64,000 nt of DNA from Candidatus Woesearchaeota archaeon (GTDB lineage Archaea > Nanobdellota > Nanobdellia > Pacearchaeales > GW2011-AR1), in the NCBI GenBank assembly GCA_964406515.1, contig CAYORV010000001.1, positions 33,956-97,955 on the forward strand, read 5' to 3'. Of the stretch, positions 7,431 to 61,895 are shown piece after piece. Within the stretch, counting starts at the first letter, position 1; the number at the start of each line of letters is the position of its first letter. Made by a program: the position numbers and the translations under genes. The notes under the pieces were generated by a model. The model had not been told where the DNA came from, ran no database searches, and worked only from the letters and a program-made list of their open reading frames with translations.

Positions 7431-7450
7431 CTATAAAATATATATTTTCT

Positions 7451-7470
7451 CTTCATAATCCTTAAAAAAG
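7451..7470 (+). promoter_or_regulatory. BRE/TATA-like promoter motif (cttcataatcCTTAAAAAAG) upstream of 7493
   Basis: Matches the recurrent motif. ~23 bp to the ATG. Confidence 0.45.
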
Positions 7471-7492
7471 AATTATATTTTATAAAAAAGAG

Positions 7493-9217: not shown

Positions 9218-9240
9218 TAGTAAAAGTAATGTATATAGTA

Positions 9241-9261
9241 TTCCTCAACAATCTTTAAAAG
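9241..9261 (+). promoter_or_regulatory. BRE/TATA-like promoter motif (ttcctcaacaatcTTTAAAAG)
   Basis: ~27-34 bp upstream of the ATG at 9288. Near-identical copies at 11977 and 42262. Confidence 0.55.
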
Positions 9262-9287
9262 AAAAGAGTATCTAAATAATAAAAAGG

Positions 9288-10259
9288 ATGATAATTTCAA
9301 AAACACCATTGAGGATAAATTTTTCTGGAGGAGCGACAGACTTAAAAGATTATAGGCAGGTTCATGGAGGGGCAGTTCTTAATGTTTCTATTAATCAGTA
9401 TGCATATATTATTGCAAAAGAAAGAGTTGATAATGACCTCTGGTTAAAATATTCAAAAAATGAAATTGTGAAAAATGTAGACCAGGTACAAAATGAAGTA
9501 TGGAAAGAATGCTTGATGGCTACAGGAGTCACTAAAGGGGCAGAGATCGTTGCAATGGCAGATATTCCTAAAGGATTTGGACTTGGAGGATCAAGTGCCT
9601 TTACAGTTGGTTCATTAAATGCCCTTCATGCTTTAACTGGAAAACATAAATCTGGAAAAGAGCTTGCTGAAGAAGCTGTAGAAATTGGGAAAAAGATATC
9701 AAAGGCATATGGGTCTCAAGATTATTATGCTTCATCTCATGGAGGCCTTAATCTTATTGAATTTGGAAAAGAAGAGGGGGTTTTTGTTAATCCAATAATC
9801 ATTCCTCCTTCATTGAAGAAAAGTCTTTCTCAGAATTTGTTATTATTTGACATGAGAACGCAAAAGGCAATAGATCCCTTATCAAATTTAAATACAGGAA
9901 TGCAAACAAATGAAGGAACACTTCATAAAATTAAAGAGATTGTTTATGCTACTAGAGATTCATTGCATTCTTTAGATTTAAGGAGGTTTGGAGAATTATT
10001 ACATGAAAATTGGGAGTATAAAAAGACAGTTCTAAAGAATATCTCTAATTCAGAAATTGATAGATATTATAATCTAGCGAGAGAGGCTGGGGCGATAGGT
10101 GGAAAAATGTGTTGCAGTCCAGAATCTGGAGGATTCTTATTAGTTTATGGGGAACCAGAAAAACAAGACCAAATTAGAGCAGCATTAAATCTTAAGGAAG
10201 TTCCATTTGAATTTGAATCTGGACAATCAGGAAGTAAAATTATTTATGTTGGAGAGTAA
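9288..10259 (+). CDS. GHMP kinase, second HddA-like paralog (no phosphatase domain)
   Basis: 'MIISKTPLRINFSGGATD', 'GFGLGGSSAFTVGS' and 'GGKMCCSPESGGFLLVYG' motifs. Paralogous to the N-terminal half of 7493..9217. Confidence 0.7.
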   Translation: MIISKTPLRINFSGGATDLKDYRQVHGGAVLNVSINQYAYIIAKERVDNDLWLKYSKNEIVKNVDQVQNEVWKECLMATGVTKGAEIVAMADIPKGFGLGGSSAFTVGSLNALHALTGKHKSGKELAEEAVEIGKKISKAYGSQDYYASSHGGLNLIEFGKEEGVFVNPIIIPPSLKKSLSQNLLLFDMRTQKAIDPLSNLNTGMQTNEGTLHKIKEIVYATRDSLHSLDLRRFGELLHENWEYKKTVLKNISNSEIDRYYNLAREAGAIGGKMCCSPESGGFLLVYGEPEKQDQIRAALNLKEVPFEFESGQSGSKIIYVGE

Positions 10260-10871
10260 ATGAATTTTGCAAAAGAATATTTCCGGGAATTATATGAGGG
10301 ATTAGACAAAATTGATCCAGACAAAATAGAAAAAGTAACAGATGTTTTGTTAAACGCTTGGAAGAATGGTCAACAGGTTTTTATTTTAGGTAATGGGGGG
10401 AGTGCGGCTACTGCATCTCATATGGCATGTGATTTTGGAAAGGGAACTTTGAAAAAAATGTATGACCCTGTAGAAAAAAGATTTAAAGTTATATCCTTGA
10501 CAGATAATGCTCCTTTATTAACTGCATTGGCAAATGATGTCGGTTATGAAAATATTTTTGCCCAGCAGTTATATAATCAAATTAAGATGGGAGATATAGT
10601 TATAGTTATAACAGGTAGTGGGAACAGTGAAAATGTATTAAGGGCAATTAAAGTAGCTCAAGATAAAAAAGCCACCATCATAGCATTTTTGGGTGCTGAT
10701 GGCGGTAAGGCAAAAGACATGGTGGATTATTGCATAATCTATGAAGAATTACATTATGGGAGAATAGAAGATGCACATAGTATTCTTTCACATTTAATTA
10801 CTAATTGGTTAAAAGAAAAATTAGATAGTCTAAAAGGTTCTGGGGAATTTTTTAAGGAAGAAGCAAAATGA
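10260..10871 (+). CDS. gmhA: Sedoheptulose-7-phosphate isomerase (SIS domain, GmhA)
   Basis: 'FILGNGGSAATASHMACDF' and 'VITGSGNSENVLRAIKVAQDKKATIIAFLGADGG' align colinearly with E. coli GmhA signature blocks. Start abuts the upstream stop. Confidence 0.8.
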   Translation: MNFAKEYFRELYEGLDKIDPDKIEKVTDVLLNAWKNGQQVFILGNGGSAATASHMACDFGKGTLKKMYDPVEKRFKVISLTDNAPLLTALANDVGYENIFAQQLYNQIKMGDIVIVITGSGNSENVLRAIKVAQDKKATIIAFLGADGGKAKDMVDYCIIYEELHYGRIEDAHSILSHLITNWLKEKLDSLKGSGEFFKEEAK

Positions 10872-11965
10872 AAGTGTTAATAACTGGTGGAGCAGGATTT
10901 ATTGGAAGTCATACAGCAGATTTACTTTCATCAAAAGGATATTCAATAAAGATTTTAGATAATCTTAGTCCTCCAGTCCATGATGGAGATTGGCCAGATT
11001 ATGTTAAAAATAAAGGATATGAGCTAATCAGAGGGGATGTTACTGATAAAGAGGTTTTTACTGAAGCAATGAGGGATGTTAATTATATATTTCATCTTGC
11101 TGCATATCAAGATCAAATGCCAGATTTTAGTAAATTTTTTAGAGTAAATACAGTAAGCACGGCTCTTATCTTTGAAATTATTTTAGAAAATAAGTTTCCT
11201 GTTAAAAAGATAGTTTATGCAAGTTCTCAATTTGTATATGGGGATGGAGTTTATATTTCAAGTGATGGAAAAGAATTTTATCCTGAATTAAGATCAGAAG
11301 AACAATTTAAAAATAAAATATGGAATATATTGGATGCAAAAGGGGAGCTTGCAAAATTTATTCCGTTCAAAGAAGAGCAAAAGGTTAATCCGACAAATTG
11401 TTATGGATTATCAAAGATGGCTTCTGAGAATTTATCTATAAGATTGGGAAAAACTTATGGAATTCCTGTTTCAATTGTGAGATATTCTATTGTCCAGGGT
11501 TCAAGACAATCCCCAAAAAATATGTACTCTGGAGCATTAAGAATTTTTGTGACGCAAGCACTTGCTGAACAACCCATCACAGTTACTGAAGATGGAAATC
11601 AAGTGAGGGATTTTGTGAATGTTGAAGATGTTGCAAGAGCAAATGTTTTAATGATAGAGGAACCAAGAACAGATTTTGAAATATATAATGTTGGAGGTGG
11701 ACAGGGGTACAAGATTAAGGATTTTGCAGAGATGGTCAAAAGAATAACAAATTCTAATTCTGAAATTTTAATTGATGGAAGATTTAGAAGAACAGATGCA
11801 AGAGATTCTATATCAAATATATCAAAATTAAGAAATTTGGGTTGGAATCCGATTCATACTCCTGAAAAATCAATTAAAGATTATACTAATTGGATTAAAA
11901 CAGCAGGATTTGATGTTGGAGAAATTGCAAAAGGAGTGAATGAAGGACAGAAAAAATTAGTTTGA
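10868..11965 (+). CDS. NAD-dependent sugar-nucleotide epimerase/dehydratase (extended SDR), possible heptose epimerase
   Basis: 'VLITGGAGFIGSH' Rossmann motif and 'YGLSKMASE' YxxxK. ATGA overlap with gmhA. Confidence 0.7.
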   Translation: MKVLITGGAGFIGSHTADLLSSKGYSIKILDNLSPPVHDGDWPDYVKNKGYELIRGDVTDKEVFTEAMRDVNYIFHLAAYQDQMPDFSKFFRVNTVSTALIFEIILENKFPVKKIVYASSQFVYGDGVYISSDGKEFYPELRSEEQFKNKIWNILDAKGELAKFIPFKEEQKVNPTNCYGLSKMASENLSIRLGKTYGIPVSIVRYSIVQGSRQSPKNMYSGALRIFVTQALAEQPITVTEDGNQVRDFVNVEDVARANVLMIEEPRTDFEIYNVGGGQGYKIKDFAEMVKRITNSNSEILIDGRFRRTDARDSISNISKLRNLGWNPIHTPEKSIKDYTNWIKTAGFDVGEIAKGVNEGQKKLV

Positions 11966-11976
11966 AATATGTATTC

Positions 11977-11997
11977 TTCCTCAACAATATTTAAAAC
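11977..11997 (+). promoter_or_regulatory. BRE/TATA-like promoter motif (ttcctcaacaatATTTAAAAC)
   Basis: ~34 bp upstream of the ATG at 12030. Confidence 0.5.
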
Positions 11998-12029
11998 AAT
12001 TAGATTTTTAAAGAAAATAATAACATAAA

Positions 12030-12593
12030 ATGTTCCCAATAAATAATATTGAAATTTATTCTTCAGGAAAAATCATCAAACCAGAAGAAGTAGCTGTTTT
12101 TGTCTCAAAGTTGAAAAGTTTTGGGAAAAAAGTCGGTCTTTGTCTCGGATGTTTTGACCTGTTACATCCAGGTCATGTGAAACATTTAGAATCTGCTAAA
12201 AAATTATGTGATTATTTGATTGTTGCTGTAACTGCAGACAAATTTATAATCTCAAGAAAAGGTTCAGAAAGACCAATATTTAACGAACAGTTAAGAGCTT
12301 ATATGCTTGCAACCTTAGAAGTTGTAGATTGCGTGGTTATTCAAAATTTTGAAAAAGGAACAGAACTTCTAGAATTGATTAAACCTTCTTTTTATATTAA
12401 AGGACCTGATATAATTAATCTTGATACTCCTGCAATAAATGAAGAACGTGAGATGACTAAAAAAGTTGGTGGAGAGATGAGATATACTCGCGATCCTAAA
12501 TGGGCCACAACAGACATTATAGAATTTATGAGTAATTTAAATAATCAGGAAGGTTCAAGTTCTGGAACATCTCCTCTCCATATGGGAACATAA
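12030..12593 (+). CDS. Cytidylyltransferase-fold nucleotidyltransferase, HldE domain-II-like (heptose-1-P adenylyltransferase candidate)
   Basis: 'LGCFDLLHPGHVKHLESAKKLCDYLIVAVTAD...RP...LEVVDCVV' is colinear with the RfaE/HldE domain II HxGH family. Confidence 0.6.
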   Translation: MFPINNIEIYSSGKIIKPEEVAVFVSKLKSFGKKVGLCLGCFDLLHPGHVKHLESAKKLCDYLIVAVTADKFIISRKGSERPIFNEQLRAYMLATLEVVDCVVIQNFEKGTELLELIKPSFYIKGPDIINLDTPAINEEREMTKKVGGEMRYTRDPKWATTDIIEFMSNLNNQEGSSSGTSPLHMGT

Positions 12594-23022: not shown

Positions 23023-23042
23023 AATATTTTTGATTTAAGTTA

Positions 23043-23866: not shown

Positions 23867-23885
23867 TAAGTTAATAAAAAATTTC

Positions 23886-26909: not shown

Positions 26910-26933
26910 TTTAAGAATTGTTTTGGAAAAATA

Positions 26934-28016: not shown

Positions 28017-28050
28017 CTTATAAAAGGATAATTTTAATTTATAAATATTA

Positions 28051-32677: not shown

Positions 32678-32697
32678 CTACATAAATCTTTATAAAT
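32678..32697 (+). promoter_or_regulatory. BRE/TATA-like promoter (ctacataaatcTTTATAAAt)
   Basis: ~21 bp upstream of the ATG at 32717. Confidence 0.5.
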
Positions 32698-32716
32698 TAA
32701 ATTAATAATAAAATTT

Positions 32717-36560: not shown

Positions 36561-38771
36561 ATGGAAATCTTGGATAATTTCTCCGACAAAAATTATACAA
36601 CTAGGGAAACATGTAGGGTTTGTGGTTCAGAAAATTTAACTCCTCTTTTTTCATTAGGAGATTTATATATTTCTACTTTTGTTAAAAATCCTTACGAGAG
36701 CATTGGAAAGGCTCCTCTTGAATTAGTATGGTGTGAAAATTGTACATTAGTACAGCTTAAGCATACTGCACCCCAAGAACTTATGTATTCAAAGCATTAT
36801 TGGTATCATTCTAAATTAAATAAGGTTATTGTAGAGGATTTAAGAGAAATAACAGAGATTGCTAATAAAATGGTTGACCTAAAAGAAGGAGATGTTATTC
36901 TTGACATTGGAGCGAATGACGGAACATTGTTGAGTTTTTATCCTTCAAGATACCTTCGAGTTGGATGTGAACCTGCAACAAATTTAATTGAAGATATGAG
37001 AAAACATTGTAATATTGCGATGAATGACTTCTGGACTTATGAGAATTACAAAAATGCTGTTGGAGAAAGAAAAGCAAAAATAATTACTGCTATTGGAATG
37101 TTTTATGATATGGAGGATCCAAATCAGTTTATCCGTGATTCTGCCGAGGCACTTGAAGAAGATGGTGTTTTTATTGCTCAATTGATGACTTCAAAAAAAA
37201 TGTTAGAACAAAATGATATAGGGAATATTTGCCATGAGCATATTGAATATTATTCTTACGAGTCTCTTAAATATCTTTTTGAAAAAAATGGTTTAGAAAT
37301 ATTTAAGGTTGAAGAAAATGCGATTAATGGAGGAAGTTATAGATTGTTTGCAAGAAAATACAAAACAGGAAGTGTTCATTATCCTGAAAACATAACTAAA
37401 GAAAATTATTTAGATTTTGCCAAGAAAATAGAAGAAAACAGACAAAATTGTTTGAATTTACTCAATGAACTCAATAAGCAAGGTAAAAAAATCTATGGTT
37501 ATGGAGCCTCTACAAAAGGGAATACAATTCTCCAATATTATGGTATAGGTACTGGTTTGATTAAAGGAATTGCAGAAATAAGTGAAGAAAAATTTGGCAA
37601 ATATACTGTTGGATCAGGAATTCCAATAATTGAGGAAAAAGAAGCAAAAAAAGATGCAGATTATTTTTTAATCTTGCCTTATGCATTTAGAGATTCTTTT
37701 ATTGAAAAAGAGCAGGAATGGATTAAGAATGGAGGAAAATTTATTTTTGCTTTGCCAGAAGTAGAAATTTATCCTAAGGAAGATTTTGAAAAAAAGAAAA
37801 AAGCTTTAATTTTGGGAATTACTGGGCAGGATGGAAGTTATCTTGCAGAATTTCTTTTAGAAAAAGGATATGAAGTTCATGGGATGATAAGAAAATCTGC
37901 TACAGGAAATACAAAAAATATAAAGCATATTATGGGCAAGATTGTTCTGCATAAGGGGAACTTAACAGACCCTGTTTCAATTTATAAAATCATTGATGAC
38001 GTTAGACCTGAAGAGATTTATAATGAAGCCGATCAAGATCACGTAAGTTGGAGTTTTGATATGGCAGGTTATAGTTATGATGTTACAGGGGCTGCTGTTG
38101 GGAGAATTCTTGAAATAATAAAACAAATTAATCCTAAAATAAAATATTTTCAACCTTTATCATCAAATATTTTTGGAATTCCTGAAGAGACACCCCAGAC
38201 AGAAGAAACTAATGTAAGGCCTCAGAGCCCATATGCTTGTGGAAAAGTGTTAGCCCAAGTTTTGTGTAAATATTATCGGGATGTTTATGGTATGTTTATT
38301 TCTACTGCAATTTTCTACAATCACGAATCTCCAAGAAGAACAGAAGATTATGTGACACATAAAATTACTAAAGCTGCTGTTAAAATCTCAAAAGGATTGC
38401 AAAAAAAATTATCTTTGGGAGATTTATCGACAAGGGTTGATTTTGGTTATGCTCCAGAATACATGGAAGCTGCATGGAATATGATGCAATTAGATAAACC
38501 AGATGATTTTATTATATGTACTGGCGAGACCCATACTGTTCAAGAATTTTTGCAAGAAGCATTTAAAGAAGTGGGATTAAATGCGGATGATTATGTTGAG
38601 TATGACAAACAATTTGAAAGGCCTGGAAAAACAGGAGATCTGATTGGAGATTATTCTAAAGCAAATAGGGCTTTTGGATTTACTCCACGAACTAAATTTA
38701 AAGAGATTGTAAGGATGTTAATTAAAAATGATTTAAAGGAAGTTGAGAGGGAAATGCAGGAAAATGATTGA
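36561..38771 (+). CDS. Fusion of an NDP-hexose C-methyltransferase (TylC3/TcaB9-like, N-terminal Zn ribbon) with a GDP-mannose 4,6-dehydratase
   Basis: N-term 'CRVCGS...CENCTLVQL' Cys4 ribbon plus 'LDIGANDGTLL' MTase. C-term '[31 protein letters not shown]', 'YNEADQDHV', 'PYACGK' (GMD/SDR). Confidence 0.7.
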   Translation: MEILDNFSDKNYTTRETCRVCGSENLTPLFSLGDLYISTFVKNPYESIGKAPLELVWCENCTLVQLKHTAPQELMYSKHYWYHSKLNKVIVEDLREITEIANKMVDLKEGDVILDIGANDGTLLSFYPSRYLRVGCEPATNLIEDMRKHCNIAMNDFWTYENYKNAVGERKAKIITAIGMFYDMEDPNQFIRDSAEALEEDGVFIAQLMTSKKMLEQNDIGNICHEHIEYYSYESLKYLFEKNGLEIFKVEENAINGGSYRLFARKYKTGSVHYPENITKENYLDFAKKIEENRQNCLNLLNELNKQGKKIYGYGASTKGNTILQYYGIGTGLIKGIAEISEEKFGKYTVGSGIPIIEEKEAKKDADYFLILPYAFRDSFIEKEQEWIKNGGKFIFALPEVEIYPKEDFEKKKKALILGITGQDGSYLAEFLLEKGYEVHGMIRKSATGNTKNIKHIMGKIVLHKGNLTDPVSIYKIIDDVRPEEIYNEADQDHVSWSFDMAGYSYDVTGAAVGRILEIIKQINPKIKYFQPLSSNIFGIPEETPQTEETNVRPQSPYACGKVLAQVLCKYYRDVYGMFISTAIFYNHESPRRTEDYVTHKITKAAVKISKGLQKKLSLGDLSTRVDFGYAPEYMEAAWNMMQLDKPDDFIICTGETHTVQEFLQEAFKEVGLNADDYVEYDKQFERPGKTGDLIGDYSKANRAFGFTPRTKFKEIVRMLIKNDLKEVEREMQEND

Positions 38772-39240
38772 GTTAAATGGGAAAAAAGAAAAAATAGTTA
38801 TGGTTAGTGGGGGATTTGATCCATTGCATTTGGGACACTTGCTTTCTTTTCAAGCAGCTAAAAGATTAGGTGATAAGCTTGTAGTAGTTATTGATGGAGA
38901 TGAATATTTAATAAAAAAGAGAGGGCATGTTTTTATGCCGATTGAAGATAGAATTGCCATAATAAGGGAGTTGGAGTGTGTAGATGATGTAATTACTATG
39001 GGTGATGGGGATCTTAGTGAAACAATCTTGCATATGAAACCAGATATCTTTGCAAACGGAGGAGATAAAAATCTTTTAGAAAAAATTCCTTCCTCTGAAA
39101 TAGAGGCCTGTGAAAAAGTAGGATGTAAAATTATTTTTAATGTTGGTGGAGGAAACAAATTGAGATCAAGTTCTGAATTATTAGATAGGTGGGTGACATT
39201 AAATAAAAATAAACTAATTAAAAATGAAGAAAGATTTTGA
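38764..39240 (+). CDS. Cytidylyltransferase-fold nucleotidyltransferase (HxGH)
   Basis: 'IVMVSGGFDPLHLGHLLSFQAAKRLGDKLVVVI'. The ATG at 38764 gives an ATGA-type 8-nt overlap with the upstream gene. The track start is at 38743. Confidence 0.6.
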   Translation: MIELNGKKEKIVMVSGGFDPLHLGHLLSFQAAKRLGDKLVVVIDGDEYLIKKRGHVFMPIEDRIAIIRELECVDDVITMGDGDLSETILHMKPDIFANGGDKNLLEKIPSSEIEACEKVGCKIIFNVGGGNKLRSSSELLDRWVTLNKNKLIKNEERF

Positions 39241-40102
39241 AATTGAGAAAACACAAGAGAGTATTCCTCTTATTAGAAAGAATATTGAAAATACAAAGAT
39301 TGTGTATTGTTTTGGATTAAGTGCAGCAGATCCTGAAAATCTTGATAGACTAAGAGAAAGTAAAAAATATTTAGAACATGTTCTTAATCCTATGATTGAG
39401 AAAGGAGAGGTTGGAGATGGCGTTAAAAGTAAATGGGATGATAGAAAGTTTAGGTTTCATTCAGCTAATTTAAAAGATAGCAAATTAGAATTAAATTTAG
39501 GGATAACACATTATCAAGAATGTGCTAATTGTAGATGTTGGGATGAAGAAAAAAGAATTAAAATGATTAAAGAGGGTGAAAAGATATTTAGTGACCCCAA
39601 CGCATTTTTTACAAGAGGATGTGGGATAGGAGTCACACCTATAACCTCTGAAGGTTCTATTTTTGTAGGAAAAAGACAAACTGAAGATAGTTCATATTCT
39701 GGAGAATTGGGTGCGATTAATGGATGGGTTGATTATGTGGAAAGAGTAGATGAGATTGATTTTACATTAGATGTTTTAAGAGAGATGAAAGAAGAATATG
39801 GTATACTTGAAAAAGATATTGATAAATTAATTTTTTCAGCAATAATCTCTCCACCTTCAAGGGCCGACACTGATTTTAGTTATCTTGCTTTATTGAGAAT
39901 TAATGATGAAAAATTCTTAGAAAGATTTCAAACAAGGCAAGATAGAGAACATGGTGAACTTGTTCAAATAGCAAATTATAGTGACATGCAAATATTATTA
40001 CAAACAGGAAGGTTGCCTAAAATTGAAGAAAAATTTAATCTTCTTTATTGCTTAAGAGCTTCTTTAGAACAAATAAAACCTAATGAAATGGTTCTAAATT
40101 AG
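39224..40102 (+). CDS. Hypothetical protein (degenerate Nudix-like segment at best)
   Basis: 'GWVDYVERVDEIDFTLDVLREMKEEYGI' loosely resembles a Nudix box but is not canonical. Confidence 0.3.
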   Translation: MKKDFEIEKTQESIPLIRKNIENTKIVYCFGLSAADPENLDRLRESKKYLEHVLNPMIEKGEVGDGVKSKWDDRKFRFHSANLKDSKLELNLGITHYQECANCRCWDEEKRIKMIKEGEKIFSDPNAFFTRGCGIGVTPITSEGSIFVGKRQTEDSSYSGELGAINGWVDYVERVDEIDFTLDVLREMKEEYGILEKDIDKLIFSAIISPPSRADTDFSYLALLRINDEKFLERFQTRQDREHGELVQIANYSDMQILLQTGRLPKIEEKFNLLYCLRASLEQIKPNEMVLN

Positions 40103-40155
40103 AATATATTCCCTACCTTCTAAAAACTTATAAAACAATTCTCTTTATTCTCCAA

Positions 40156-41301
40156 ATGGTAAAAGAAAAGGACTTATACAAAATACGAGCGGAAATTTCT
40201 CCTGGTTTTAATTACTATTTTGATAAGTTTACTTCTCTTTTTGTAAAAAGTAAGACACATCCAATAAAGAATCCTAAAAAGATTTTGTTTATACGAAATG
40301 ATCATATCGGAGACATGGTTTATTCTACTCAAATTTTTAGAGAAATTAAGAAAATTTTTCCAAATACTAAAATTAGTGTTTTAGCTACAAGGAGCAATAG
40401 AGAAATAATAGAAAAAGATCCTTATGTTGATGAAATTTTGGAGATAGATCTTTTTTGGAGAAGAGGATTAAGGGGGTTTTTAGATTATTTTAAGATACTT
40501 AAAAAAATAAAAAAAGAGAAATTCGACGTAGGTGTTGATCTTAGAAGAAGTAAATTGAATATTATTTTTTTCTTATGGATTCCTAAGATTAAAGCACGAG
40601 CAAGTTTCTATAATTTAAATGGTGGAAAAGCATTTTTGACCCATCCTATTTTGTATGACAAAAAAGCGAATTATGCTCAAGAAAATATTAGATTAATCAA
40701 CAAAGTTTTTGGATTAGATATTAAAAATTATTTGCCGCATGTTATAGCTGATAAAGAAGATGAAAAAGAAGTGGAAAAGTTATTAAAGAAAAATGATTTG
40801 AAAAAATATGTTGTTTTTGCTCCAGGAGCAACTGCAAATTCTAAAAGATGGCCTGAAGAAAAATTCAAAGAGTTAATTGAACGATTTCATGATAAATATC
40901 CCAATCATAAGATTATCTTATCTGGAGCAGGAAGTGACACAAATCTGATAAGGAGATTAGGTGATGATAGAGATTTTTGTGTTCCACTTATTAATTTTAA
41001 TTTAAGATTGATGTCAGTTATTTTCAAAAAGGCAGGAGCTGTTGTTGCTAATGACGGATGCGCAACAGATATATGCTGGGTTGCGGGAGGAAATTTGGTT
41101 GCACTTGTTGGACCAGTCGATTTGGAACTTTGCAAACCTTTAAAGAAAAGTAAAATAATTCATCACAAGGTAGATTGTTATCCTTGTTTTTGGGCAAGAG
41201 AATGTGAAAAGCCTAAAAAAGAATGGTGTATGAATTTAATCACTACTGACGAAGTTATAAAAGCTATTCATGAATTTATGGGAGAAAATAAATTATCTTA
41301 G
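40156..41301 (+). CDS. GT9-family glycosyltransferase (ADP-heptose:acceptor heptosyltransferase-like)
   Basis: 'KKILFIRNDHIGDMVYSTQIFREIKKIFPNTKISVLA' and 'VVFAPGATANSKRWPEEKFKELIERF' match RfaC/RfaF/WaaQ conserved blocks. Confidence 0.65.
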   Translation: MVKEKDLYKIRAEISPGFNYYFDKFTSLFVKSKTHPIKNPKKILFIRNDHIGDMVYSTQIFREIKKIFPNTKISVLATRSNREIIEKDPYVDEILEIDLFWRRGLRGFLDYFKILKKIKKEKFDVGVDLRRSKLNIIFFLWIPKIKARASFYNLNGGKAFLTHPILYDKKANYAQENIRLINKVFGLDIKNYLPHVIADKEDEKEVEKLLKKNDLKKYVVFAPGATANSKRWPEEKFKELIERFHDKYPNHKIILSGAGSDTNLIRRLGDDRDFCVPLINFNLRLMSVIFKKAGAVVANDGCATDICWVAGGNLVALVGPVDLELCKPLKKSKIIHHKVDCYPCFWARECEKPKKEWCMNLITTDEVIKAIHEFMGENKLS

Positions 41302-42159
41302 ACATAACACATTTTTTGCGAAGGGGTTTAAATTAATTATTTCTTTTCCTTCCATTAATATTAAATCTTTTTTGTCTTCGTCAAGATAATAAAAATTAAA
41401 ATTAAGTTTCTTTAAAAGTTTCAGATATTTTTCTTGCCCAAATTTAGAACGTTCAAGTCCTCCAGGAAATAATTCAGTAATTAGTTTAATCTTAGGGTTC
41501 TCTTTTAGTAAATTTTCTCCCCCCATAACAACATAGGGTTCAGCACCTTCTACATCCATCTTAATGAAATTTATTTTCTTATCCAAATTCTTAAAATAAT
41601 CATCTAAACTTATGGCTTCAACTTCAACAGAAGAATGAAAAGATTTGGATTCGAATAAACTACTTGATGCGGAATGTATATTATCTGAATGTAACTTCTT
41701 TTTTTCAAATTTATCTGAAACTGCTTTTTGTTCAAGAATAACATTCTGGTATTTATTTATTTCAACATTTTTCTTCAATAAAGAAAAATTGCTTGGGTCT
41801 GGTTCAAAAGCATAAACTTTACCCTCGTCCCCAACTAACTTTGCAAGAAGCAGAGTATAAAAACCAATATTAGCGCCCAGATCAATAACAATATCTCCTT
41901 TTTTAACAAGGCTTTTTATTGTTTCTGCTTCTAATTCCTCTCTTTCCCAATTAGTATGAACACTTAAATGTAATGCATCATATTTATCTAAGAATAATTT
42001 ATGCCCTTCGGAAGTAATAATAAATTCTGGTTTTAATTTCTTGCGGATATTATCATTTAACTTCATAATCTTTTTTGATTTAGTTAAGAAAGTATTGTTA
42101 AACATATTTACTAATTTTTTATAACTTTTTGCTAATAATTCTTTAGTTTTGATACCCAT
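41293..42159 (-). CDS. FkbM-family SAM-dependent methyltransferase
   Basis: 'IVIDLGANIGFYTLLLAK' FkbM motif. Confidence 0.6.
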   Translation of the reverse strand: MGIKTKELLAKSYKKLVNMFNNTFLTKSKKIMKLNDNIRKKLKPEFIITSEGHKLFLDKYDALHLSVHTNWEREELEAETIKSLVKKGDIVIDLGANIGFYTLLLAKLVGDEGKVYAFEPDPSNFSLLKKNVEINKYQNVILEQKAVSDKFEKKKLHSDNIHSASSSLFESKSFHSSVEVEAISLDDYFKNLDKKINFIKMDVEGAEPYVVMGGENLLKENPKIKLITELFPGGLERSKFGQEKYLKLLKKLNFNFYYLDEDKKDLILMEGKEIINLNPFAKNVLCLR

Positions 42160-42260: not shown

Positions 42261-42282
42261 TTCCCTCAATAATCTTTAAAAG
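42261..42282 (+). promoter_or_regulatory. BRE/TATA-like promoter (ttccctcaataatcTTTAAAAG)
   Basis: ~22 bp upstream of the ATG at 42304. Confidence 0.55.
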
Positions 42283-42303
42283 ACATCATCTTCTTTTGCA
42301 TTA

Positions 42304-43377
42304 ATGAAAAGAGCGTTAATAACTGGAATTACAGGACAGGATGGAAGTTATCTTGCTGAATTTTTAATCAATTTAGGTTATGAGGTTCATGGAATTGTTA
42401 GAAGAAGCAGTTCACATAATCGTGGGAGGATAGATCATCTCACAAGTGCAGACAAACACACTTCTATAGCGCAAGAAAATCCAATTTTGCATCACGGAGA
42501 TTTGACGGATTCTTCTTCTGTTGAAAATATTATAAGAGAAGTTAAACCTGACGAAGTTTATAATCTCGGTGCGCAAAGCCATGTTCGGATTAGTTTTGAT
42601 ATCCCCGAAAACACTGCGAATATTGTGGCTTTAGGAACACAGAGAGTTCTAGAAGCTATTAGAAAATTCTGCCCTGATGCAAAATTTTACCAAGCTAGCT
42701 CTTCTGAAATGTTCGGAAAAGTCACAGAAACTCCCCAAACAGAAGAAACTCCCTTTCATCCTAGGAGCCCTTATGGATGCGCCAAAGTCCATGCCCATTA
42801 TATTACTATAAACTACAGGGAAGCTTATGGAATTCACGCATCAAATGGAATTTTATTTAATCATGAAAGTGAAAGACGAGGAGAAAATTTTGTTACAAGA
42901 AAAATTACAAGAAATCTTTCCAGAATTAAAGTAGGAATCCAAAAAAATTTCTCTCTTGGAAATCTTAATGCTGAGAGAGATTGGGGACATGCTCAAGATT
43001 ATGTAAGAGCCATGTGGATGATGCTCCAACAAGAAAATCCAGATGATTATGTTATTGGTACAGGAGAAAAACATTCTGTGAGGGAATTTATTAAAGAAAC
43101 AGCGAAATGTCTTGGAATGGACCTCAAATCAAATGGAGAGGAAGGAGTAAATGAAAAATATATCGATGAGAAAGGAAATGTTGTCATAGAAATTAACCCA
43201 TTATATTTTAGACCGTCAGAAGTAGATTTACTTTTTTCTAATCCTTCTAAAGCAAAAAATGTGTTAGGCTGGGAACCCAAAATTAGATTTAAGGAACTTG
43301 TTAAAAAGATGGTGGATGCTGATTTGACTCTTGCTGAAAAAGAAGCGCAAATAAATCAAAGAATTAAAACATTTTAA
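42304..43377 (+). CDS. gmd: GDP-mannose 4,6-dehydratase
   Basis: '[37 protein letters not shown]', 'YNLGAQSHV', 'SPYGCAKV...Y' and 'NHESERRG' are all GMD hallmark blocks. Confidence 0.8.
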
Positions 43378-44448
43378 ATGGAATATAAATATCCTATAGC
43401 AAAACCCTGCTTAAAGGGAAACGAATTGGAATATGTCACAAATGCCGTTAAAACCGGATGGATTTCTTCTCAAGGAGATTATGTGAAAAGATTTGAAGAA
43501 AAATTTGCTGAATGGAACAGCACTAAATATGGGGTTTCATGTTCTTCAGGAACAGCAGCACTTCTCATAGCATTAAGGGCATTAGGGATCAAACAAGGAG
43601 ATGAGGTTATTGTTCCAGAATTTACAATGATTGCTTCTGCTTGGGCGGTTAGTTATACTGGAGCAACTCCTGTTTTTGTGGATTGTAAGGATGACTTGAA
43701 CATCAATGAAAAACTTATAGAAGAAAAGATAACTGAAAAAACAAAAGCTATAATGCCTGTTCATATTTATGGGAGAAGGTGCAACATGGAAAAGATTATG
43801 GATCTTGCTTATAACTACAATTTGTTTGTTGTTGAAGATTCTGCAGAAGGCCATGGAATAAAACCTGTTGGAGATATTGCTTGCTTTTCTCTTTTTGCTA
43901 ATAAAATCATAACTTCGGGAGAAGGGGGAATTTGCGTAACAAATAACAAACGATTAGCAGAACAAATGGTTCATTTGAGAGGTATGGCTTTTACTCCAGA
44001 ACATGATTTTATACATAAAAAACTTGCTTATAATTTTAGGATAACTAATTTACAAGCAGCGGTTGCACTTGCTCAGACAGAAAAGATAAATGAATTTCTG
44101 CAAAAGAGAAAACAAATAGAATTTTGGTATGATGAAAATTTAAGGAATATCCCTCAAATTCAATTAATGCCCAATCGCGAGGTCTTATGGATGTATGATG
44201 TTTTAGTTAAAGATAGAGATAAATTAATGGAATATTTAAAGGAAAATGGAATTGAAACAAGGAAATTTTTTAGACCAATGAGTCAACAACCAATGTATTT
44301 TGATGAAAATTGGAAGAACCTCAATGCTGTTAAATTTAGTGATAGTGGAATTTATCTTCCAACTTATTTTGAACTAAAAGAGGAGGATATAAGATTTATT
44401 GCTAATAAAATAAGGGAATTTTATTCTGGAGTAGAAAATGTCCAATAA
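43378..44448 (+). CDS. DegT/DnrJ/EryC1-family PLP sugar aminotransferase (GDP-perosamine synthase-like)
   Basis: 'KAIMPVHIYGRRCNMEKIMDLAYNYNLFVVEDSAEGHG', 'SLFANKIITSGEGG'. Immediately follows gmd. Confidence 0.75.
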   Translation: MEYKYPIAKPCLKGNELEYVTNAVKTGWISSQGDYVKRFEEKFAEWNSTKYGVSCSSGTAALLIALRALGIKQGDEVIVPEFTMIASAWAVSYTGATPVFVDCKDDLNINEKLIEEKITEKTKAIMPVHIYGRRCNMEKIMDLAYNYNLFVVEDSAEGHGIKPVGDIACFSLFANKIITSGEGGICVTNNKRLAEQMVHLRGMAFTPEHDFIHKKLAYNFRITNLQAAVALAQTEKINEFLQKRKQIEFWYDENLRNIPQIQLMPNREVLWMYDVLVKDRDKLMEYLKENGIETRKFFRPMSQQPMYFDENWKNLNAVKFSDSGIYLPTYFELKEEDIRFIANKIREFYSGVENVQ

Positions 44449-44893
44449 GATATCTAATGAATTGTACGATCAGATTTTAGAGAACATTCCTATTTGTTGT
44501 GTTGATATTATAGTATCTCATAATGGCAAAGTTTTACTAATACATCGTAAAGAAGAACCTGCTAAGGATAAATGGTGGGTTGTTGGAGGAAGAATTTTGA
44601 AAGGAGAAAAATTTATAGAGGCGGTCAAACGAAAAGTAAAAGAAGAGGTTGGATTAGAAATTGAGGTCGAAAAAAGGGTTGGTGTTTACGAACTTATTTT
44701 TGAACAGGGGGATTCTTTAGAGGTAAGAGATGGCACTCATGCTGTAACAATTGTGTATTTGGTTAAACCTTCTAAAGAACAAGATATAAAAATTGATGCA
44801 ACAAGTTCAGACCATAAATGGATTAATGGTATTGAAGAAGACTTAGATCCTTATATTAAACAAATTTTAAAAGATTCAGAGGTTTTTGATTAA
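44438..44893 (+). CDS. Nudix hydrolase (GDP-mannose mannosyl hydrolase Gmm/NudD-like)
   Basis: 'GGRILKGEKFIEAVKRKVKEEVGLEI' canonical Nudix box Gx5Ex7REUxEExGU. Confidence 0.6.
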   Translation: MSNKISNELYDQILENIPICCVDIIVSHNGKVLLIHRKEEPAKDKWWVVGGRILKGEKFIEAVKRKVKEEVGLEIEVEKRVGVYELIFEQGDSLEVRDGTHAVTIVYLVKPSKEQDIKIDATSSDHKWINGIEEDLDPYIKQILKDSEVFD

Positions 44894-48815: not shown

Positions 48816-48816
48816 T

Positions 48817-57235: not shown

Positions 57236-57310
57236 TTTCTAAGCCTCCAAAATTTCATTGCCTATGAATACTCAATAAACTTTAAATAGTATTCCTAAAT
57301 AATTATTTTT

Positions 57311-60341: not shown

Positions 60342-61895
60342 CTATTTTAAGTGTTTGTTTCTTTTGAATTTTTTAAAAATAGTTTTTATTATATACAAAT
60401 CATGTTCATCTAAACATTTTGTTGTTAAGAGTAAAAGAGTATAAACCGCTAGGAAAAAAATACCGCAAAGGATTAGAGATAGCAAGTTTGTTTCCATAAA
60501 AGATTTAACAATCAGGAGTAATATCGCAGACACGATTGTTATTAATGTTATTCTAACCATCTTTTTTCTTAATGGAATAATTGAAAGATATTTTTTAGCT
60601 TGTATTAGGAACAATACATTTAGGATTACTAAAGAGGTCATTGTGGCAAAACCTGCTCCTGTAATTCCATACAATGGTACTAATACGAAATTAAGGATTG
60701 CGTTTAGAATCCCTGCGAAAATTAAATCTATCAAAAGAAGTTTAGATTTTCCTTTCATAGAGAGGAGTTCTTGCGAAATTCCGAAAAGTGTTGAGAATAA
60801 AACTCCAATAGATAAAAATCTTAGAGCATTTACTGCTACAAGATACTCCTGACCAAAAAGGAGATTAATAACTGCTCCGGGAAAAATAATAAAAAGAACA
60901 AAAATTGGCAGAACCATCATAAAAACCCATTTACCAACCTGTTGACTTAATTGTTTTACTATTTCAAGTCTTCCTTTAGAGAATTCTTTTGTTACAAGAG
61001 GGAAAAAAAGTTGGGAAAAAAACATCATTGGCAAAGACAATAACATGGCTATTGGGATAGCAGCATTATAAAAACCAACATCTTTTGCAGTTTGGAATAT
61101 TCCAATCATAAAAGAATCAACCCAATAAAAAATGAATGTGACAACGCCATAAAAAACTAATGGCCAAGAATAAGAAAACATTTCTTTAAAGGCTTTTTTA
61201 GTTTCTAAGTTTTTTATTTTCTTCTTTGAACTAAAGATTTCAGAAAGTGTAATCTTACAAACAAAATAAGAGGCGATGAATATTGAGAGGGTTCCAATTA
61301 AATAAGATATTGGAACAGATTTTGAATTTATCCCAAAAAAGATTAACAGAATTAAAATTGCTAGTTTGATAAAATTTCCTAAAATATTTGCGATAAAAGA
61401 GAACCACCCTATTTTTTCATAAGCTCTTAAAACAGATAATAAAGTTTCTCCTAAAACCGCTAGAGGAACAGTAATACTAAAAATTTTTAGAAAAATAATT
61501 AAATTAGGATCAGAGAATATTTTCAATGCAATAAATTCGGAAAAAAAGAATAATAAAATACCTGCTATGATACTTGTAATGATTAAGATAATAAAGGAGA
61601 TTTTTATTAAACCTCGAATTTTCCCTTTTTCTCCTTTCCCCCTTAGTAGAGAGACATGTCTTAGAAGTCCTTGTTTAATTCCCAAATTAGAAATGACTCT
61701 AAACCAACTAAATAGCATAACTGATAAGGCAAATAAACCATAGATTTCTGGACCATAATGCCGAGCAATTACTATCCTATATCCATAAAAAATTATCTTT
61801 GATAAAAAAAGTCCAATAAAAACTATTATTGAAGATTTGGCCAGTAATTTTAATCCGGTTTTTATCCCTGCTTCATTGTCTTTCTCTAAGTTCAT
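60342..61895 (-). CDS. Wzx-like polysaccharide/oligosaccharide flippase (MOP superfamily)
   Basis: 517 aa, 12-14 TM helices. N-terminal 'LLAKSSIIVFIGLFLSKIIFYGYRIVIARHYGPEIYGLF', typical of polysaccharide-biosynthesis (Wzx) proteins. Confidence 0.65.
   Translation of the reverse strand: MNLEKDNEAGIKTGLKLLAKSSIIVFIGLFLSKIIFYGYRIVIARHYGPEIYGLFALSVMLFSWFRVISNLGIKQGLLRHVSLLRGKGEKGKIRGLIKISFIILIITSIIAGILLFFFSEFIALKIFSDPNLIIFLKIFSITVPLAVLGETLLSVLRAYEKIGWFSFIANILGNFIKLAILILLIFFGINSKSVPISYLIGTLSIFIASYFVCKITLSEIFSSKKKIKNLETKKAFKEMFSYSWPLVFYGVVTFIFYWVDSFMIGIFQTAKDVGFYNAAIPIAMLLSLPMMFFSQLFFPLVTKEFSKGRLEIVKQLSQQVGKWVFMMVLPIFVLFIIFPGAVINLLFGQEYLVAVNALRFLSIGVLFSTLFGISQELLSMKGKSKLLLIDLIFAGILNAILNFVLVPLYGITGAGFATMTSLVILNVLFLIQAKKYLSIIPLRKKMVRITLITIVSAILLLIVKSFMETNLLSLILCGIFFLAVYTLLLLTTKCLDEHDLYIIKTIFKKFKRNKHLK

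What the first reader, a model, noticed from the sequence alone, without database searches (positions are those of the whole stretch)
40156..41301. GT9 (heptosyltransferase-family) glycosyltransferase in an archaeal-type promoter context
The N-terminal 'KKILFIRNDHIGDMVYSTQIFREIKKIFPNTKISVL' and central 'FAPGATANSKRWPEEKFKELI' blocks match the conserved cores of WaaC/WaaF/WaaQ. GT9 enzymes are essentially a bacterial LPS-core family. Its presence 28 kb from the heptose cassette, inside the same island, argues that the activated heptose is actually incorporated into a glycan here.
Basis: partly seen in the sequence, partly recalled or inferred. Interest (0 to 1): 0.55.

Follow-up and report, generated by a model that had tools for sequence, protein, structure and literature searches.

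The report
Archaeal GT9 glycosyltransferase with altered sugar pocket
This is a real glycosyltransferase of the bacterial "heptosyltransferase" family (GT9) sitting in the surface-glycan gene island of a tiny DPANN archaeon, but its sugar-binding pocket and its conserved gene neighbours suggest it transfers a mannose-derived deoxy/amino sugar rather than heptose.

Summary
The ORF (40156-41301, +, 381 aa) is real and belongs to GT9: Pfam PF01075 scores 68 bits (cut-off 22), the AlphaFold model has pLDDT 94.5, and the best PDB folds are HepII, WaaC and 3TOV. The host is archaeal (Pacearchaeota-like DPANN): the contig carries L21e, Rpb4 and the S13-S4-S11-RpoD operon, and TATA boxes sit about 28 nt before start codons. 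The island starts with AglB (STT3) and an initiating transferase and holds a Wzx-type flippase.

The heptose inference is not supported. The protein fails all HepI/II/III equivalog cut-offs. It keeps the catalytic Asp and phosphate Lys but has lost the heptose-contacting His (HepI H266 -> D305) and Thr/Ser262 (-> Gly). In related archaeal loci, His-less GT9s have a true GDP-mannose 4,6-dehydratase and a perosamine-synthase-like aminotransferase nearby in 12/13 cases; His-retaining ones have neither (0/20). Two further prospective look-ups were also positive. No heptose gene lies within 10 kb in any of 35 archaeal loci.

Best reading: an inverting GT-B enzyme extending a lipid-linked glycan, probably with a GDP-mannose-derived 6-deoxy amino or C-methyl sugar. 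The donor is inferred, not shown.

The parts
40128..40135 (+). TATA-box-like element (TTATAAAA) 28 nt upstream of the GT9 start codon, with no Shine-Dalgarno motif; implies a leaderless or very short-leader archaeal transcript
   Evidence: Sequence. Positional enrichment of TATA-like motifs at -30..-21 across 32 upstream regions, and SD-like motifs in 2/32.
40156..41301 (+). GT9-family GT-B glycosyltransferase, 381 aa (end coordinate includes the stop codon)
   Evidence: ORF; PF01075 68.2 bits; AF2 pLDDT 94.5; Foldseek top hits 3TOV/1PSW/WaaC.
40156..40275 (+). N-terminal ~40-aa extension (two helices, aa 4-9 and 16-29, aromatic-rich 'PGFNYYFDKFTSLF') preceding the first Rossmann-like domain; absent from E. 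coli WaaC/WaaF
   Evidence: Secondary structure. Present in 70/72 close relatives, 8/33 of the 33-44% identity group and 84/113 distant relatives. Hydrophobic moment 0.43. A role in membrane association is inferred only.
40306..40314 (+). I51-G52-D53: catalytic-base motif (equivalent to HepI M11-G12-D13)
   Evidence: Alignment with E. coli WaaC/F/Q/U; D53 conserved in 71/72, 33/33 and 110/113 members of the three identity groups. G52 and D53 are invariant in A1. Role of HepI Asp13 from bioRxiv 10.1101/2021.06.16.448588.
40843..40851 (+). K230-R231-W232: pyrophosphate-binding Lys block (HepI K192 / HepII K195)
   Evidence: K in 69/72 close relatives. Role.
41050..41070 (+). N299-D300-G301-C302-A303-T304-D305: donor-sugar loop. 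D300 equals HepI D261 and is kept. G301 replaces Thr/Ser262. D305 replaces the heptose-contacting His266.
   Evidence: Residue table; locus motifs; tree.
41176..41229 (+). Cys4 motif C341-x2-C344-x5-C350-x7-C358 in a C-terminal loop (probable metal finger)
   Evidence: Complete in 54/72 close relatives, 5/33 of the 33-44% group and 91/113 distant relatives; absent from E. coli WaaC/F/Q/U. Metal binding was not tested.
36561..38771 (+). Conserved partner: fusion of a sugar 3-C-methyltransferase (TylC3/TcaB9-like) with a GMD-like 4,6-dehydratase
   Evidence: Pfam; TIGR01472 328 bits, below the 415 cut-off. PDB: 4RV9 142 bits, GMD 1N7G 299 bits, against 71 bits for GDP-heptose dehydratase 7US5. 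A C-methyltransferase is found in 10/13 His-less GT9 loci.
38743..39240 (+). Cytidylyltransferase-like nucleotidyltransferase. Its best hits are RfaE domain II and 3GLV, but they are weak, and it lacks the (F/L)xxGxSTT motif.
   Evidence: (71 bits against a 181.5 cut-off). The same model scores 63 bits on the PEP-mutase-fused domain.
39224..40102 (+). NUDT22-like two-domain Nudix protein (putative nucleotide-sugar hydrolase), overlapping 38743 by 17 nt
   Evidence: No Pfam or NCBIfam hit. AF2 pLDDT 79. Foldseek top hit is human NUDT22, E 8e-13. Recurs in L010, L025, L031 and L040.
41293..42159 (-). FkbM-family methyltransferase, convergent with the GT9 and overlapping its 3' end
   Evidence: Pfam; TIGR01444 106.6 bits, above the 37.7 cut-off.
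42304..43377 (+). GDP-mannose 4,6-dehydratase (passes the equivalog cut-off)
   Evidence: TIGR01472 516.3 bits against a 415 cut-off. 400-431 bits to solved GMDs against 119 bits to 7US5. Present in 12/13 His-less GT9 loci and 0/20 His-retaining loci.
43378..44448 (+). DegT-family aminotransferase closest to GDP-perosamine synthase
   Evidence: Pfam. PDB top hits 3BN1/3DR7/3DR4 at 258-261 bits. Same 12/13 against 0/20 co-occurrence.
44438..44893 (+). NUDIX hydrolase with weak similarity to GDP-mannose mannosyl hydrolase
   Evidence: 52 bits against a 146 cut-off.
60342..61895 (-). Wzx/MOP-type flippase of the island
   Evidence: Pfam Polysacc_synt / Polysacc_synt_3 / MatE. A flippase of this type recurs near GT9 in most archaeal loci.
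6684..12593 (+). Probably a separate pathway module, flanked by GT2 genes.
   Evidence: all members below equivalog cut-offs; STTR5-like 'RDPKWATT' in 12030; flanking GT2 genes.

Best explanation
The ORF encodes a functional, inverting GT-B glycosyltransferase of CAZy family GT9 in a Pacearchaeota-like DPANN archaeon. It lies inside a glycan island of about 75 kb or more. The island begins with the oligosaccharyltransferase AglB (STT3) and a PF00953 initiating transferase, and it contains a Wzx-type flippase. So the enzyme most likely works at the cytoplasmic face of the membrane, adding one sugar to a lipid-linked oligosaccharide that is later flipped and transferred to surface proteins. Catalysis would follow the HepI/HepII scheme: Asp53 deprotonates the acceptor hydroxyl, and Lys230 with the loop at 299-305 holds the nucleotide-sugar pyrophosphate.

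The enzyme belongs to a clade of the archaeal GT9s in which the donor-sugar loop has changed from D-(S/T)-G-x-x-H to (D/N)-G-x-x-x-(D/E or other non-His residue). This clade is consistently encoded next to a GDP-mannose 4,6-dehydratase, a perosamine-synthase-like aminotransferase and a 3-C-methyltransferase/dehydratase fusion. [quoted passage not shown] I propose instead a GDP-mannose-derived 6-deoxy sugar: a 4-amino-4,6-dideoxy sugar such as perosamine, or a 3-C-methyl derivative. The new acidic residue (Asp305) could pair with the sugar's amino group.

Shown here: family, fold, catalytic residues, archaeal host, island content, residue change and synteny. Inferred: acceptor, donor identity and the role of Asp305.
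For: Family and fold.

Catalytic and nucleotide-binding residues conserved (D53, K230, W232, D261, D300): with their roles taken.

Archaeal host: L21e, Rpb4 and the S13-S4-S11-RpoD operon on the same contig. RpoD is 76% identical to a Candidatus Pacearchaeota protein. Promoter register.

Island context: STT3 plus PF00953 transferase upstream, Wzx, many sugar-nucleotide tailoring genes.

Donor-loop change: H266 -> D305, with D44/E8/H8 among 72 close relatives, against H in 108/113 distant relatives and all four E. coli enzymes. T/S262 -> Gly in 69/72.

Synteny: GMD 12/13, DegT 12/13 and C-methyltransferase 10/13 in His-less loci, against 0/20, 0/20 and 1/20 in His-retaining archaeal loci. Two prospective look-ups in untested His-less sub-lineages were both positive (L100, L101). 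An independent His loss (L049), nested among His-retaining sequences, also has GMD and DegT nearby.

Partner identities: GMD passes its equivalog cut-off. It is far closer to solved GMDs (400-431 bits) than to the GDP-heptose 4,6-dehydratase 7US5 (119 bits). The aminotransferase is closest to GDP-perosamine synthase.
Against: No biochemical data exist for any member of this clade.

The synteny signal rests on only two independent evolutionary events: one large clade plus L049. Conserved gene order among relatives could be inherited rather than functional.

Glycan islands hold several glycosyltransferases and several sugar pathways, so adjacency does not assign a donor to a particular transferase.

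All characterised GT9 enzymes that I know of use ADP-heptose (my own knowledge of CAZy; not checked here). No GT9 using a GDP-sugar is known.

The residue equivalent to the adenine-contacting position (M242 -> F281) gives no positive evidence for guanine.

A plausible NDP-heptose cassette does exist in the same island, and some enzyme must use its product.

The nucleotidyltransferase two genes upstream (38743) best-hits RfaE domain II, although weakly.
Confidence: 0.5

Rival explanations
1. It is a true heptosyltransferase. It takes nucleotide-activated heptose made by the cassette at 6.7-12.6 kb and adds it to the lipid-linked glycan. The altered loop would reflect a different heptose isomer or nucleotide, for example GDP-D-glycero-alpha-D-manno-heptose, a CDP/UDP-heptose, or a 6-deoxy/4-amino heptose.
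For: GT9 is known for heptosyl transfer, and the best NCBIfam hit is HepII (93 bits). The catalytic Asp, the phosphate Lys and the first sugar-contacting Asp are kept. The same island has GmhA-like and HddA-like genes, a HAD phosphatase, and an RfaE-II-like enzyme with an STTR5-like Arg. Functional NDP-heptose enzymes exist in archaea, and their purpose there is an open question (PMC11461863). A heptose occurs in the Thermoplasma acidophilum N-glycan (PMC11407970).
Against: The protein is below all HepI/II/III cut-offs. The heptose-contacting His and Thr/Ser are lost. No heptose gene lies within 10 kb of the GT9 in 0/35 archaeal loci, while the control finds them near distant, mostly bacterial GT9s. 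Every cassette member is below its equivalog cut-off, and the cassette is flanked by its own GT2 genes. The neighbouring dehydratases are GMD-like rather than GDP-heptose-dehydratase-like.
Confidence: 0.3
2. It glycosylates a protein directly, like the autotransporter heptosyltransferases TibC and Aah, rather than a lipid-linked oligosaccharide. The Cys4 loop would act as a metal finger, as in TibC.
For: A C-terminal CxxC...C...C motif is conserved in 54/72 close relatives. TibC appears among the Foldseek hits (E about 1e-10).
Against: The TM-score to TibC is only about 0.5, against 0.79-0.84 for HepI/HepII/3TOV. The same Cys4 motif is present in 91/113 distant relatives, some of which sit beside WaaA and HldE in LPS-type loci. 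So the motif does not mark protein acceptors. The island has the full lipid-linked assembly set: an initiating transferase, a flippase and AglB.
Confidence: 0.08
3. It is a catalytically dead or merely structural GT9-fold protein, as in the chloroplast NDH subunit that also has this fold.
For: GT9-like folds without enzyme activity exist: NDH-PSI supercomplex subunits appear among the Foldseek hits.
Against: The catalytic Asp, G-D motif, phosphate Lys, K-x-W-P block and ribose-binding acidic residue are all conserved across the clade. The protein is strongly conserved (36-83% identity over about 95 clusters). It always sits among sugar-nucleotide genes.
Confidence: 0.03

Closest known systems
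E. coli ADP-heptose:LPS heptosyltransferase II (WaaF/HepII, PDB 1PSW) and I (WaaC/HepI, PDB 2H1H, 6DFE)
   Same: Same CAZy/Pfam family and GT-B fold (target-normalised TM 0.79-0.83). The N-terminal G-D catalytic-base motif, the K-R-W-P pyrophosphate block, the acidic ribose ligand and the first sugar-contacting Asp are all shared. The acceptor is probably lipid-anchored in both.
   Different: Only 15-18% identity, and below all equivalog cut-offs. The donor loop is NDGCATD instead of DTGLSH/DSGLMH, so the heptose-contacting His and the Thr/Ser are lost. There is an extra 40-aa N-terminal extension and a Cys4 loop. The host is an archaeon with no LPS or Kdo transferase. The neighbours are GDP-mannose-derived sugar genes, not hldD/waaA.
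Veillonella parvula GT9 protein (PDB 3TOV, structural-genomics entry, function not determined)
   Same: Best sequence and fold match in the PDB (E 8e-13; Foldseek E 5e-20). Full-length alignment.
   Different: 3TOV keeps the NDSGPMH loop with the His and lacks the Cys4 motif (alignment). It is bacterial.
His-retaining GT9 clade of DPANN archaea (e.g. P0074 in a Pacearchaeota MAG; P0084 and P0090, annotated only as 'glycosyltransferase family 9 protein')
   Same: Same archaeal GT9 radiation (33-50% identity). They sit in the same kind of glycan island, with Wzx, GT2/GT4 and radical-SAM enzymes.
   Different: They keep DGGPMH, with the His. They lack neighbouring GMD and DegT genes (0/20). They often lack the N-terminal extension and Cys4 loop, and they often occur as two or three paralogues per locus.
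GDP-perosamine pathway of bacterial O-antigen clusters (Gmd plus Per/RfbE, with a Gmm-type NUDIX; for example Caulobacter perosamine synthase, PDB 3BN1/3DR4)
   Same: The gene triad directly downstream (42304 GMD, 43378 aminotransferase, 44438 NUDIX) matches this pathway by best hits.
   Different: To my knowledge the known perosaminyltransferases are GT2/GT4 enzymes, not GT9 (own knowledge, not tested). Here the pathway also carries a 3-C-methyltransferase/dehydratase fusion.

Membership tests
CAZy GT9 / Pfam PF01075 (Glyco_transf_9) | Significant match to the family HMM above the curated gathering score | tested here: met
   PF01075 68.2 bits against 22, aa 112-352 covering profile positions 2-244 of 247. 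dbCAN itself was not available.
CAZy GT9 / Pfam PF01075 (Glyco_transf_9) | GT-B fold whose nearest solved structures are GT9 enzymes | tested here: met
   AF2 pLDDT 94.5. The top nine Foldseek PDB hits are all 3TOV, 1PSW or WaaC chains.
CAZy GT9 / Pfam PF01075 (Glyco_transf_9) | N-terminal G-D motif with the catalytic-base Asp (HepI Asp13) | tested here: met
   G52-D53; invariant in A1. D is present in 214 of 218 aligned relatives.
CAZy GT9 / Pfam PF01075 (Glyco_transf_9) | Pyrophosphate-binding Lys in the K-x-W-P block (HepI K192 / HepII K195) | tested here: met
   K230-R231-W232-P233.
LPS-core heptosyltransferases HepI/HepII/HepIII (NCBIfam equivalogs TIGR02193, TIGR02195, TIGR02201) | Score above the curated equivalog cut-off | tested here: not met
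   93.4 against 134.6 (HepII), 69.8 against 170.2 (HepIII), 56.8 against 185.3 (HepI).
LPS-core heptosyltransferases HepI/HepII/HepIII | Donor-sugar loop D-(T/S)-G-x-x-H, whose Asp and His hydrogen-bond the heptose hydroxyls (HepI D261/H266; HepII D269/H274) | tested here: not met
   The query has N299-D300-G301-C302-A303-T304-D305. The Asp is kept, Thr/Ser is Gly, and His is Asp. His is present in 108/113 distant relatives and in E. coli WaaC/F/Q/U. Residue roles.
LPS-core heptosyltransferases HepI/HepII/HepIII | Genomic association with ADP-heptose synthesis (GmhA, HldE, GmhB, HldD) and Kdo transferase WaaA | tested here: not met
   No match to E. coli GmhA/HldE/GmhB/HldD/WaaA in the 35 archaeal GT9 loci. 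6/15 distant loci do have such matches. The window has a divergent heptose-like cassette 27.6 kb away, with all members below cut-offs.
LPS-core heptosyltransferases HepI/HepII/HepIII | Transfers L-glycero-D-manno-heptose from ADP-heptose | not testable with these tools
   Needs an enzyme assay.
Archaeal N-glycosylation (agl-type) gene cluster glycosyltransferase | Encoded with the oligosaccharyltransferase AglB (STT3), an initiating phosphosugar transferase and a flippase | tested here: met
   A 947-aa STT3 protein and a PF00953 protein lie just upstream of the window on the same contig. A Wzx-type flippase lies at 60342-61895.
Archaeal N-glycosylation (agl-type) gene cluster glycosyltransferase | Acts on a dolichol-phosphate-linked oligosaccharide that ends up on Asn of surface proteins | not testable with these tools
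   Needs genetics or glycan mass spectrometry. No cultured host is available.
Autotransporter heptosyltransferases (TibC/Aah, BAHT) | Close structural similarity to TibC, including its dodecamer-forming additions | tested here: not met
   TM about 0.5 and rmsd above 7 A to 4RAP/4RB4 chains. Oligomeric state was not tested.

The most novel reading that the evidence does not exclude
A clade of GT9 enzymes in DPANN archaea has switched donor from ADP-heptose to a GDP-mannose-derived 4-amino-4,6-dideoxy or 3-C-methyl-6-deoxy sugar, through replacement of the heptose-sensing His by an acidic residue. It builds the lipid-linked precursor of an archaeal N-glycan. This would be the first non-heptose, GDP-sugar-dependent GT9 and the first functional assignment for GT9 in Archaea.
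Probability: 0.4. Interest if true: 0.65.

Novelty: new variant of a known kind. Interest (0 to 1): 0.5.

Why it matters
GT9 is treated as one of the most functionally uniform glycosyltransferase families, and automatic pipelines name these archaeal proteins "ADP-heptose:LPS heptosyltransferase" even though archaea have no LPS. The analysis shows that a sizeable DPANN clade keeps the catalytic machinery but has rebuilt the sugar pocket, and that it travels with a GDP-perosamine-type pathway. This gives three things:
- a concrete, testable case of donor switching in GT9;
- a candidate step in the still uncharacterised surface glycosylation of DPANN symbionts, whose cell surface mediates host attachment;
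- a warning against inferring heptose in archaeal glycans from GT9 annotations.

It also leaves open which enzyme uses the NDP-heptose that this archaeon may make. That question connects to the recent finding that NDP-heptose enzymes are active in archaea with no known purpose.

Tried and rejected
- **Reference-genome scan:** An alignment query would have reached further.
- **Literature:** searches for archaeal GT9 or heptosyltransferase found nothing relevant. The 'GT9' hits in the phage DNA-glycosylation preprint were word-start matches to 'GT94'.
- **His266 contacts:** I looked for which heptose atoms His266 contacts. The accessible papers say only 'heptose hydroxyl groups'.
- **RfaE domain II hit on 38743:** I rejected this as heptose evidence. 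The same model scores 63 bits on the cytidylyltransferase domain fused to PEP mutase, and 38743 lacks the STT motif.
- **GMD as a GDP-heptose dehydratase:** I considered whether the neighbouring GMD could really be one, which would rescue a 6-deoxy-heptose reading. It scores 400-431 bits to GMDs against 119 bits to 7US5, so this is unlikely but not excluded.
- **Recurring small domain:** Pfam and PDB sequence searches of the N-terminus of ORF 44894 gave only sub-threshold hits.
- **tRNAs:** none in the window, so no taxonomic information from that source.
- **Fisher p-values:** these are not probabilities of association, because the His-less proteins form one clade.
Full report
**Observation.** The ORF at 40156-41301 (+) is present as described: ATG start, 381 aa. 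The identical protein is called on at least ten contigs from several metagenomes. The longest is JGI 3300025697 contig Ga0208769_1000002 (213 kb), from which the window derives. Pfam assigns it to PF01075 Glyco_transf_9 with 68.2 bits against a gathering score of 22. A 52-sequence alignment (A1) gave an AlphaFold model with mean pLDDT 94.5 and pTM 0.92. Its best Foldseek matches in the PDB are all GT9 structures: 3TOV, E. coli HepII 1PSW and E. coli WaaC 6DFE/2H1H/2GT1, with E 1e-17 to 5e-20 and target-normalised TM 0.79-0.84. So the observation and the family assignment are confirmed.

**Host and context.** The contig is archaeal. Ten kilobases beyond the window's right edge lie ribosomal protein L21e, RNA polymerase subunit Rpb4/RpoF and the S13-S4-S11-RpoD operon. 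RpoD is 76% identical to a protein of Candidatus Pacearchaeota and about 61% identical to Nanoarchaeota proteins. Named homologues of the GT9 itself are also from Nanoarchaeia, Pacearchaeota and Nanoarchaeota. In the window, TATA-like motifs are concentrated 21-30 nt before start codons (33 occurrences against 5-14 in the other 10-nt bins, 32 upstream regions). Shine-Dalgarno-like motifs are almost absent (2/32). The GT9 has TTATAAAA at -28. Just upstream of the window the contig encodes a 947-aa STT3/AglB oligosaccharyltransferase and a PF00953 initiating transferase. The window holds a Wzx-type flippase, GT2 and GT4 enzymes, a PMT_2 GT-C protein, nine radical-SAM enzymes, phosphonate genes, sulfatases and many sugar-nucleotide tailoring enzymes. 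This is a very large surface-glycan, most likely N-glycosylation, island.

**Is it a heptosyltransferase?** The protein scores below every NCBIfam equivalog cut-off for HepI, HepII and HepIII; the best is HepII at 93 against 134.6 bits. I aligned 218 relatives with E. coli WaaC, WaaF, WaaQ and WaaU and read the positions whose roles are described for HepI/HepII in bioRxiv 10.1101/2021.06.16.448588 and 10.1101/2022.06.13.495986.
- Conserved positions: the catalytic base (HepI D13 = D53), the phosphate Lys (K192 = K230), W194, the ribose-binding acidic residue (E222 = D261) and the first heptose-contacting Asp (D261 = D300).
- Changed positions: the second heptose-contacting residue, His266, is Asp305 in the query. 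It is Asp/Glu in 52 of 72 proteins that are at least 44% identical to the query, but His in 26/33 of the 33-44% group, in 108/113 more distant relatives and in all four E. coli enzymes. Thr/Ser262 is Gly in 69/72.

The catalytic machinery is therefore intact, but the sugar-recognising loop has been rebuilt.

**Comparative genomics.** I collected 7 loci through exact-protein look-ups, 80 through a metagenome scan and 2 more later. I annotated them with phmmer, using the window's own proteins plus E. coli GmhA, GmhB, HldE, HldD and WaaA as markers. The counts below are for de-duplicated archaeal-clade loci with at least 3 kb of flank.

| Marker within the flank | His-less GT9 loci | His-retaining GT9 loci |
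|---|---|---|
| GMD orthologue | 12/13 | 0/20 |
| DegT aminotransferase | 12/13 | 0/20 |
| Sugar C-methyltransferase | 10/13 | 1/20 |

No archaeal locus (0/33, then 0/35 with the two later ones) has any heptose-pathway marker within reach. Meanwhile 6 of 15 distant, mostly bacterial loci show WaaA, HldE or GmhB, so the method can see such genes. A neighbour-joining tree shows that the His-less proteins form one clade, sister to a His-retaining clade. The nominal Fisher p of 4e-8 therefore overstates the evidence. One further His loss (L049, QDGGTLN) is nested among His-retaining sequences, and it too has GMD and DegT nearby. Two prospective look-ups in His-less sub-lineages not yet examined both found GMD and DegT next to the GT9: P0046 (DGGARE) and P0043 (DGGAAS).

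**Identity of the partners.**
- ORF 42304 passes the GMD equivalog cut-off (516 against 415 bits). It scores 400-431 bits to solved GMDs against 119 bits to the Campylobacter GDP-D-glycero-D-manno-heptose 4,6-dehydratase 7US5.
- ORF 43378 is closest to GDP-perosamine synthase (3BN1/3DR4/3DR7, 258-261 bits).
- ORF 36561 fuses a TylC3/TcaB9-like 3-C-methyltransferase to a GMD-like domain (299 bits to GMD, 71 bits to 7US5).
- ORF 44438 is a NUDIX with weak GDP-mannose mannosyl hydrolase similarity.
- The gene directly upstream (39224) had no family hit, but it folds like human NUDT22, a UDP-hexose hydrolase.
- The cytidylyltransferase-like 38743 best-hits RfaE domain II (71 bits against a 181.5 cut-off). 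The same model gives 63 bits on the domain fused to PEP mutase, and 38743 lacks the (F/L)xxGxSTT motif, so this hit is not specific evidence for heptose.

**The heptose cassette.** ORFs 6684-12593 encode an NTP-transferase, two HddA-like GHMP kinases (one fused to a HAD phosphatase), a GmhA-like SIS protein, an SDR and an RfaE-II-like enzyme with 'RDPKWATT'. The Arg in that motif sits at the position of the STTR5 signature described for promiscuous NDP-heptose synthases (PMC11461863). All members are below their equivalog cut-offs, but as a set they make an NDP-heptose pathway plausible. The cassette is flanked on both sides by GT2 genes.

**Conclusion.** The finding is a genuine, intact GT9 enzyme in a DPANN archaeon's glycan island. 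The mechanism I consider most likely (confidence about 0.5) has two parts. First, Asp53-assisted inverting transfer of one sugar onto a lipid-linked oligosaccharide at the cytoplasmic membrane face. Second, a donor that is a GDP-mannose-derived 6-deoxy amino or C-methyl sugar rather than ADP-heptose. A true heptosyltransferase role remains a serious rival (about 0.3). Heptose does occur in one archaeal N-glycan (PMC11407970), and the island may make NDP-heptose. Protein-directed (TibC-like) glycosylation and loss of activity are unlikely.

The protein belongs to GT9 but should not be filed as an LPS heptosyltransferase, because two defining features (equivalog score and donor-sugar loop) were tested and not met. 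I found no paper that discusses archaeal GT9 enzymes. The clade is known only through automatic annotation. I rate it a new variant of a known kind and of moderate interest.

Noticed in passing
window 39224-40102 (+): A 292-aa protein with no Pfam or NCBIfam hit and only 14 homologue clusters in 5.8 billion proteins. It folds as a two-domain Nudix most similar to human NUDT22, a UDP-glucose/galactose hydrolase. It overlaps the upstream nucleotidyltransferase gene by 17 nt and recurs near GT9 in L010, L025, L031 and L040.
   Followed up: yes
L015 1-3153 (contig region just upstream of the window) and window 3028-4602 (-): AglB/STT3 (947 aa) and a PF00953 initiating transferase open the island, and a PMT_2 GT-C enzyme lies inside it. 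The whole island spans more than 75 kb of a small DPANN genome, which is a very large share for a glycan locus.
   Followed up: partly
window 52196-58687 (+): A phosphonate module: a cytidylyltransferase-PEP mutase fusion (PEP mutase passes its equivalog cut-off, 398 against 319.6 bits), a phosphonopyruvate-decarboxylase-like TPP enzyme, an Fe-alcohol dehydrogenase and two type I phosphodiesterase-family proteins. It suggests a phosphonate-decorated glycan in a DPANN archaeon. The same module lies next to GT9 in L007/L014, L018 and L049.
   Followed up: partly
window 4643-5671, 13484-15022, 17020-19129, 19138-20784, 25482-28079, 44894-47083, 50899-52317: Nine radical-SAM genes in 64 kb: five with B12-binding domains and four SPASM-type. 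They are interleaved with sugar genes, and similar densities occur in related loci (L012, L013). This suggests extensive radical methylation or epimerisation of sugars.
   Followed up: no
window 44894-45460 (+), N-terminal ~190 aa of the 729-aa B12 radical-SAM protein: This domain has free-standing homologues of about 125 aa immediately beside GT9 or the GMD-DegT-NUDIX genes in many loci (L009, L010, L011, L018, L025, L027-L030, L100, L101). Only a sub-threshold DUF6165 hit (17 bits) was found, and there is no PDB match. Its function is unknown, and it is tightly linked to this GT9 clade.
   Followed up: partly
window 30179-31969, 32717-33331, 33328-34872 (+): An acetolactate-synthase-like TPP enzyme (YerE-like by architecture) plus a split E1 alpha / E1 beta-SDR fusion. 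This equipment is typical of attaching two-carbon branches to keto-sugars. E1dh/Transket_pyr pairs also recur in L009, L012, L013 and L101.
   Followed up: no
window 12030-12593 (+): An RfaE-domain-II-like nucleotidyltransferase (112.8 bits against a 181.5 cut-off) ending the heptose-like cassette. It carries 'RDPKWATT', with Arg five residues before the S/A-T-T, resembling the STTR5 signature linked to CDP/UDP-heptose synthesis. It is a candidate archaeal NDP-heptose synthase.
   Followed up: partly
window 41176-41229 (aa 341-358 of the GT9): A Cys4 motif (CxxC-x5-C-x7-C) absent from E. coli WaaC/F/Q/U but complete in 54/72 close and 91/113 distant relatives. It defines a large, mostly uncharacterised GT9 subfamily with a probable metal finger, reminiscent of TibC's iron finger.
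   Followed up: partly
proteins P0140, P0141, P0144, P0152, P0155 and others: Many distant relatives are tandem double-GT9 proteins of 650-1080 aa with two matched stretches. Other relatives are fused to acetyltransferase (P0045), FemAB (P0094) or polysaccharide pyruvyl transferase (P0117-P0120) domains.
   Followed up: no
window 24927-25301 (+): A 124-aa ORF matching only the C-terminal half of a GT4 glycosyltransferase (PF00534 positions 14-141). It may be a gene fragment or a split gene.
   Followed up: no
window upstream regions, e.g. 23014-23042, 23857-23885, 32688-32716, 42275-42303: A recurring extended promoter-like motif 'cctcaataatcTTTA(t/a)AAA' centred about 29 nt before start codons of many island genes. 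It is consistent with BRE plus TATA and with leaderless transcripts, and could be used to define transcription units.
   Followed up: partly
window 47385-48830 and 49101-50531 (-); L010 5479-9578, L011 12478-13395: Two sulfatase-family genes lie in the window. Sulfotransferase, ATP-sulfurylase and APS-kinase genes lie beside GT9 in related loci. This hints at sulfated glycans in these archaea.
   Followed up: no
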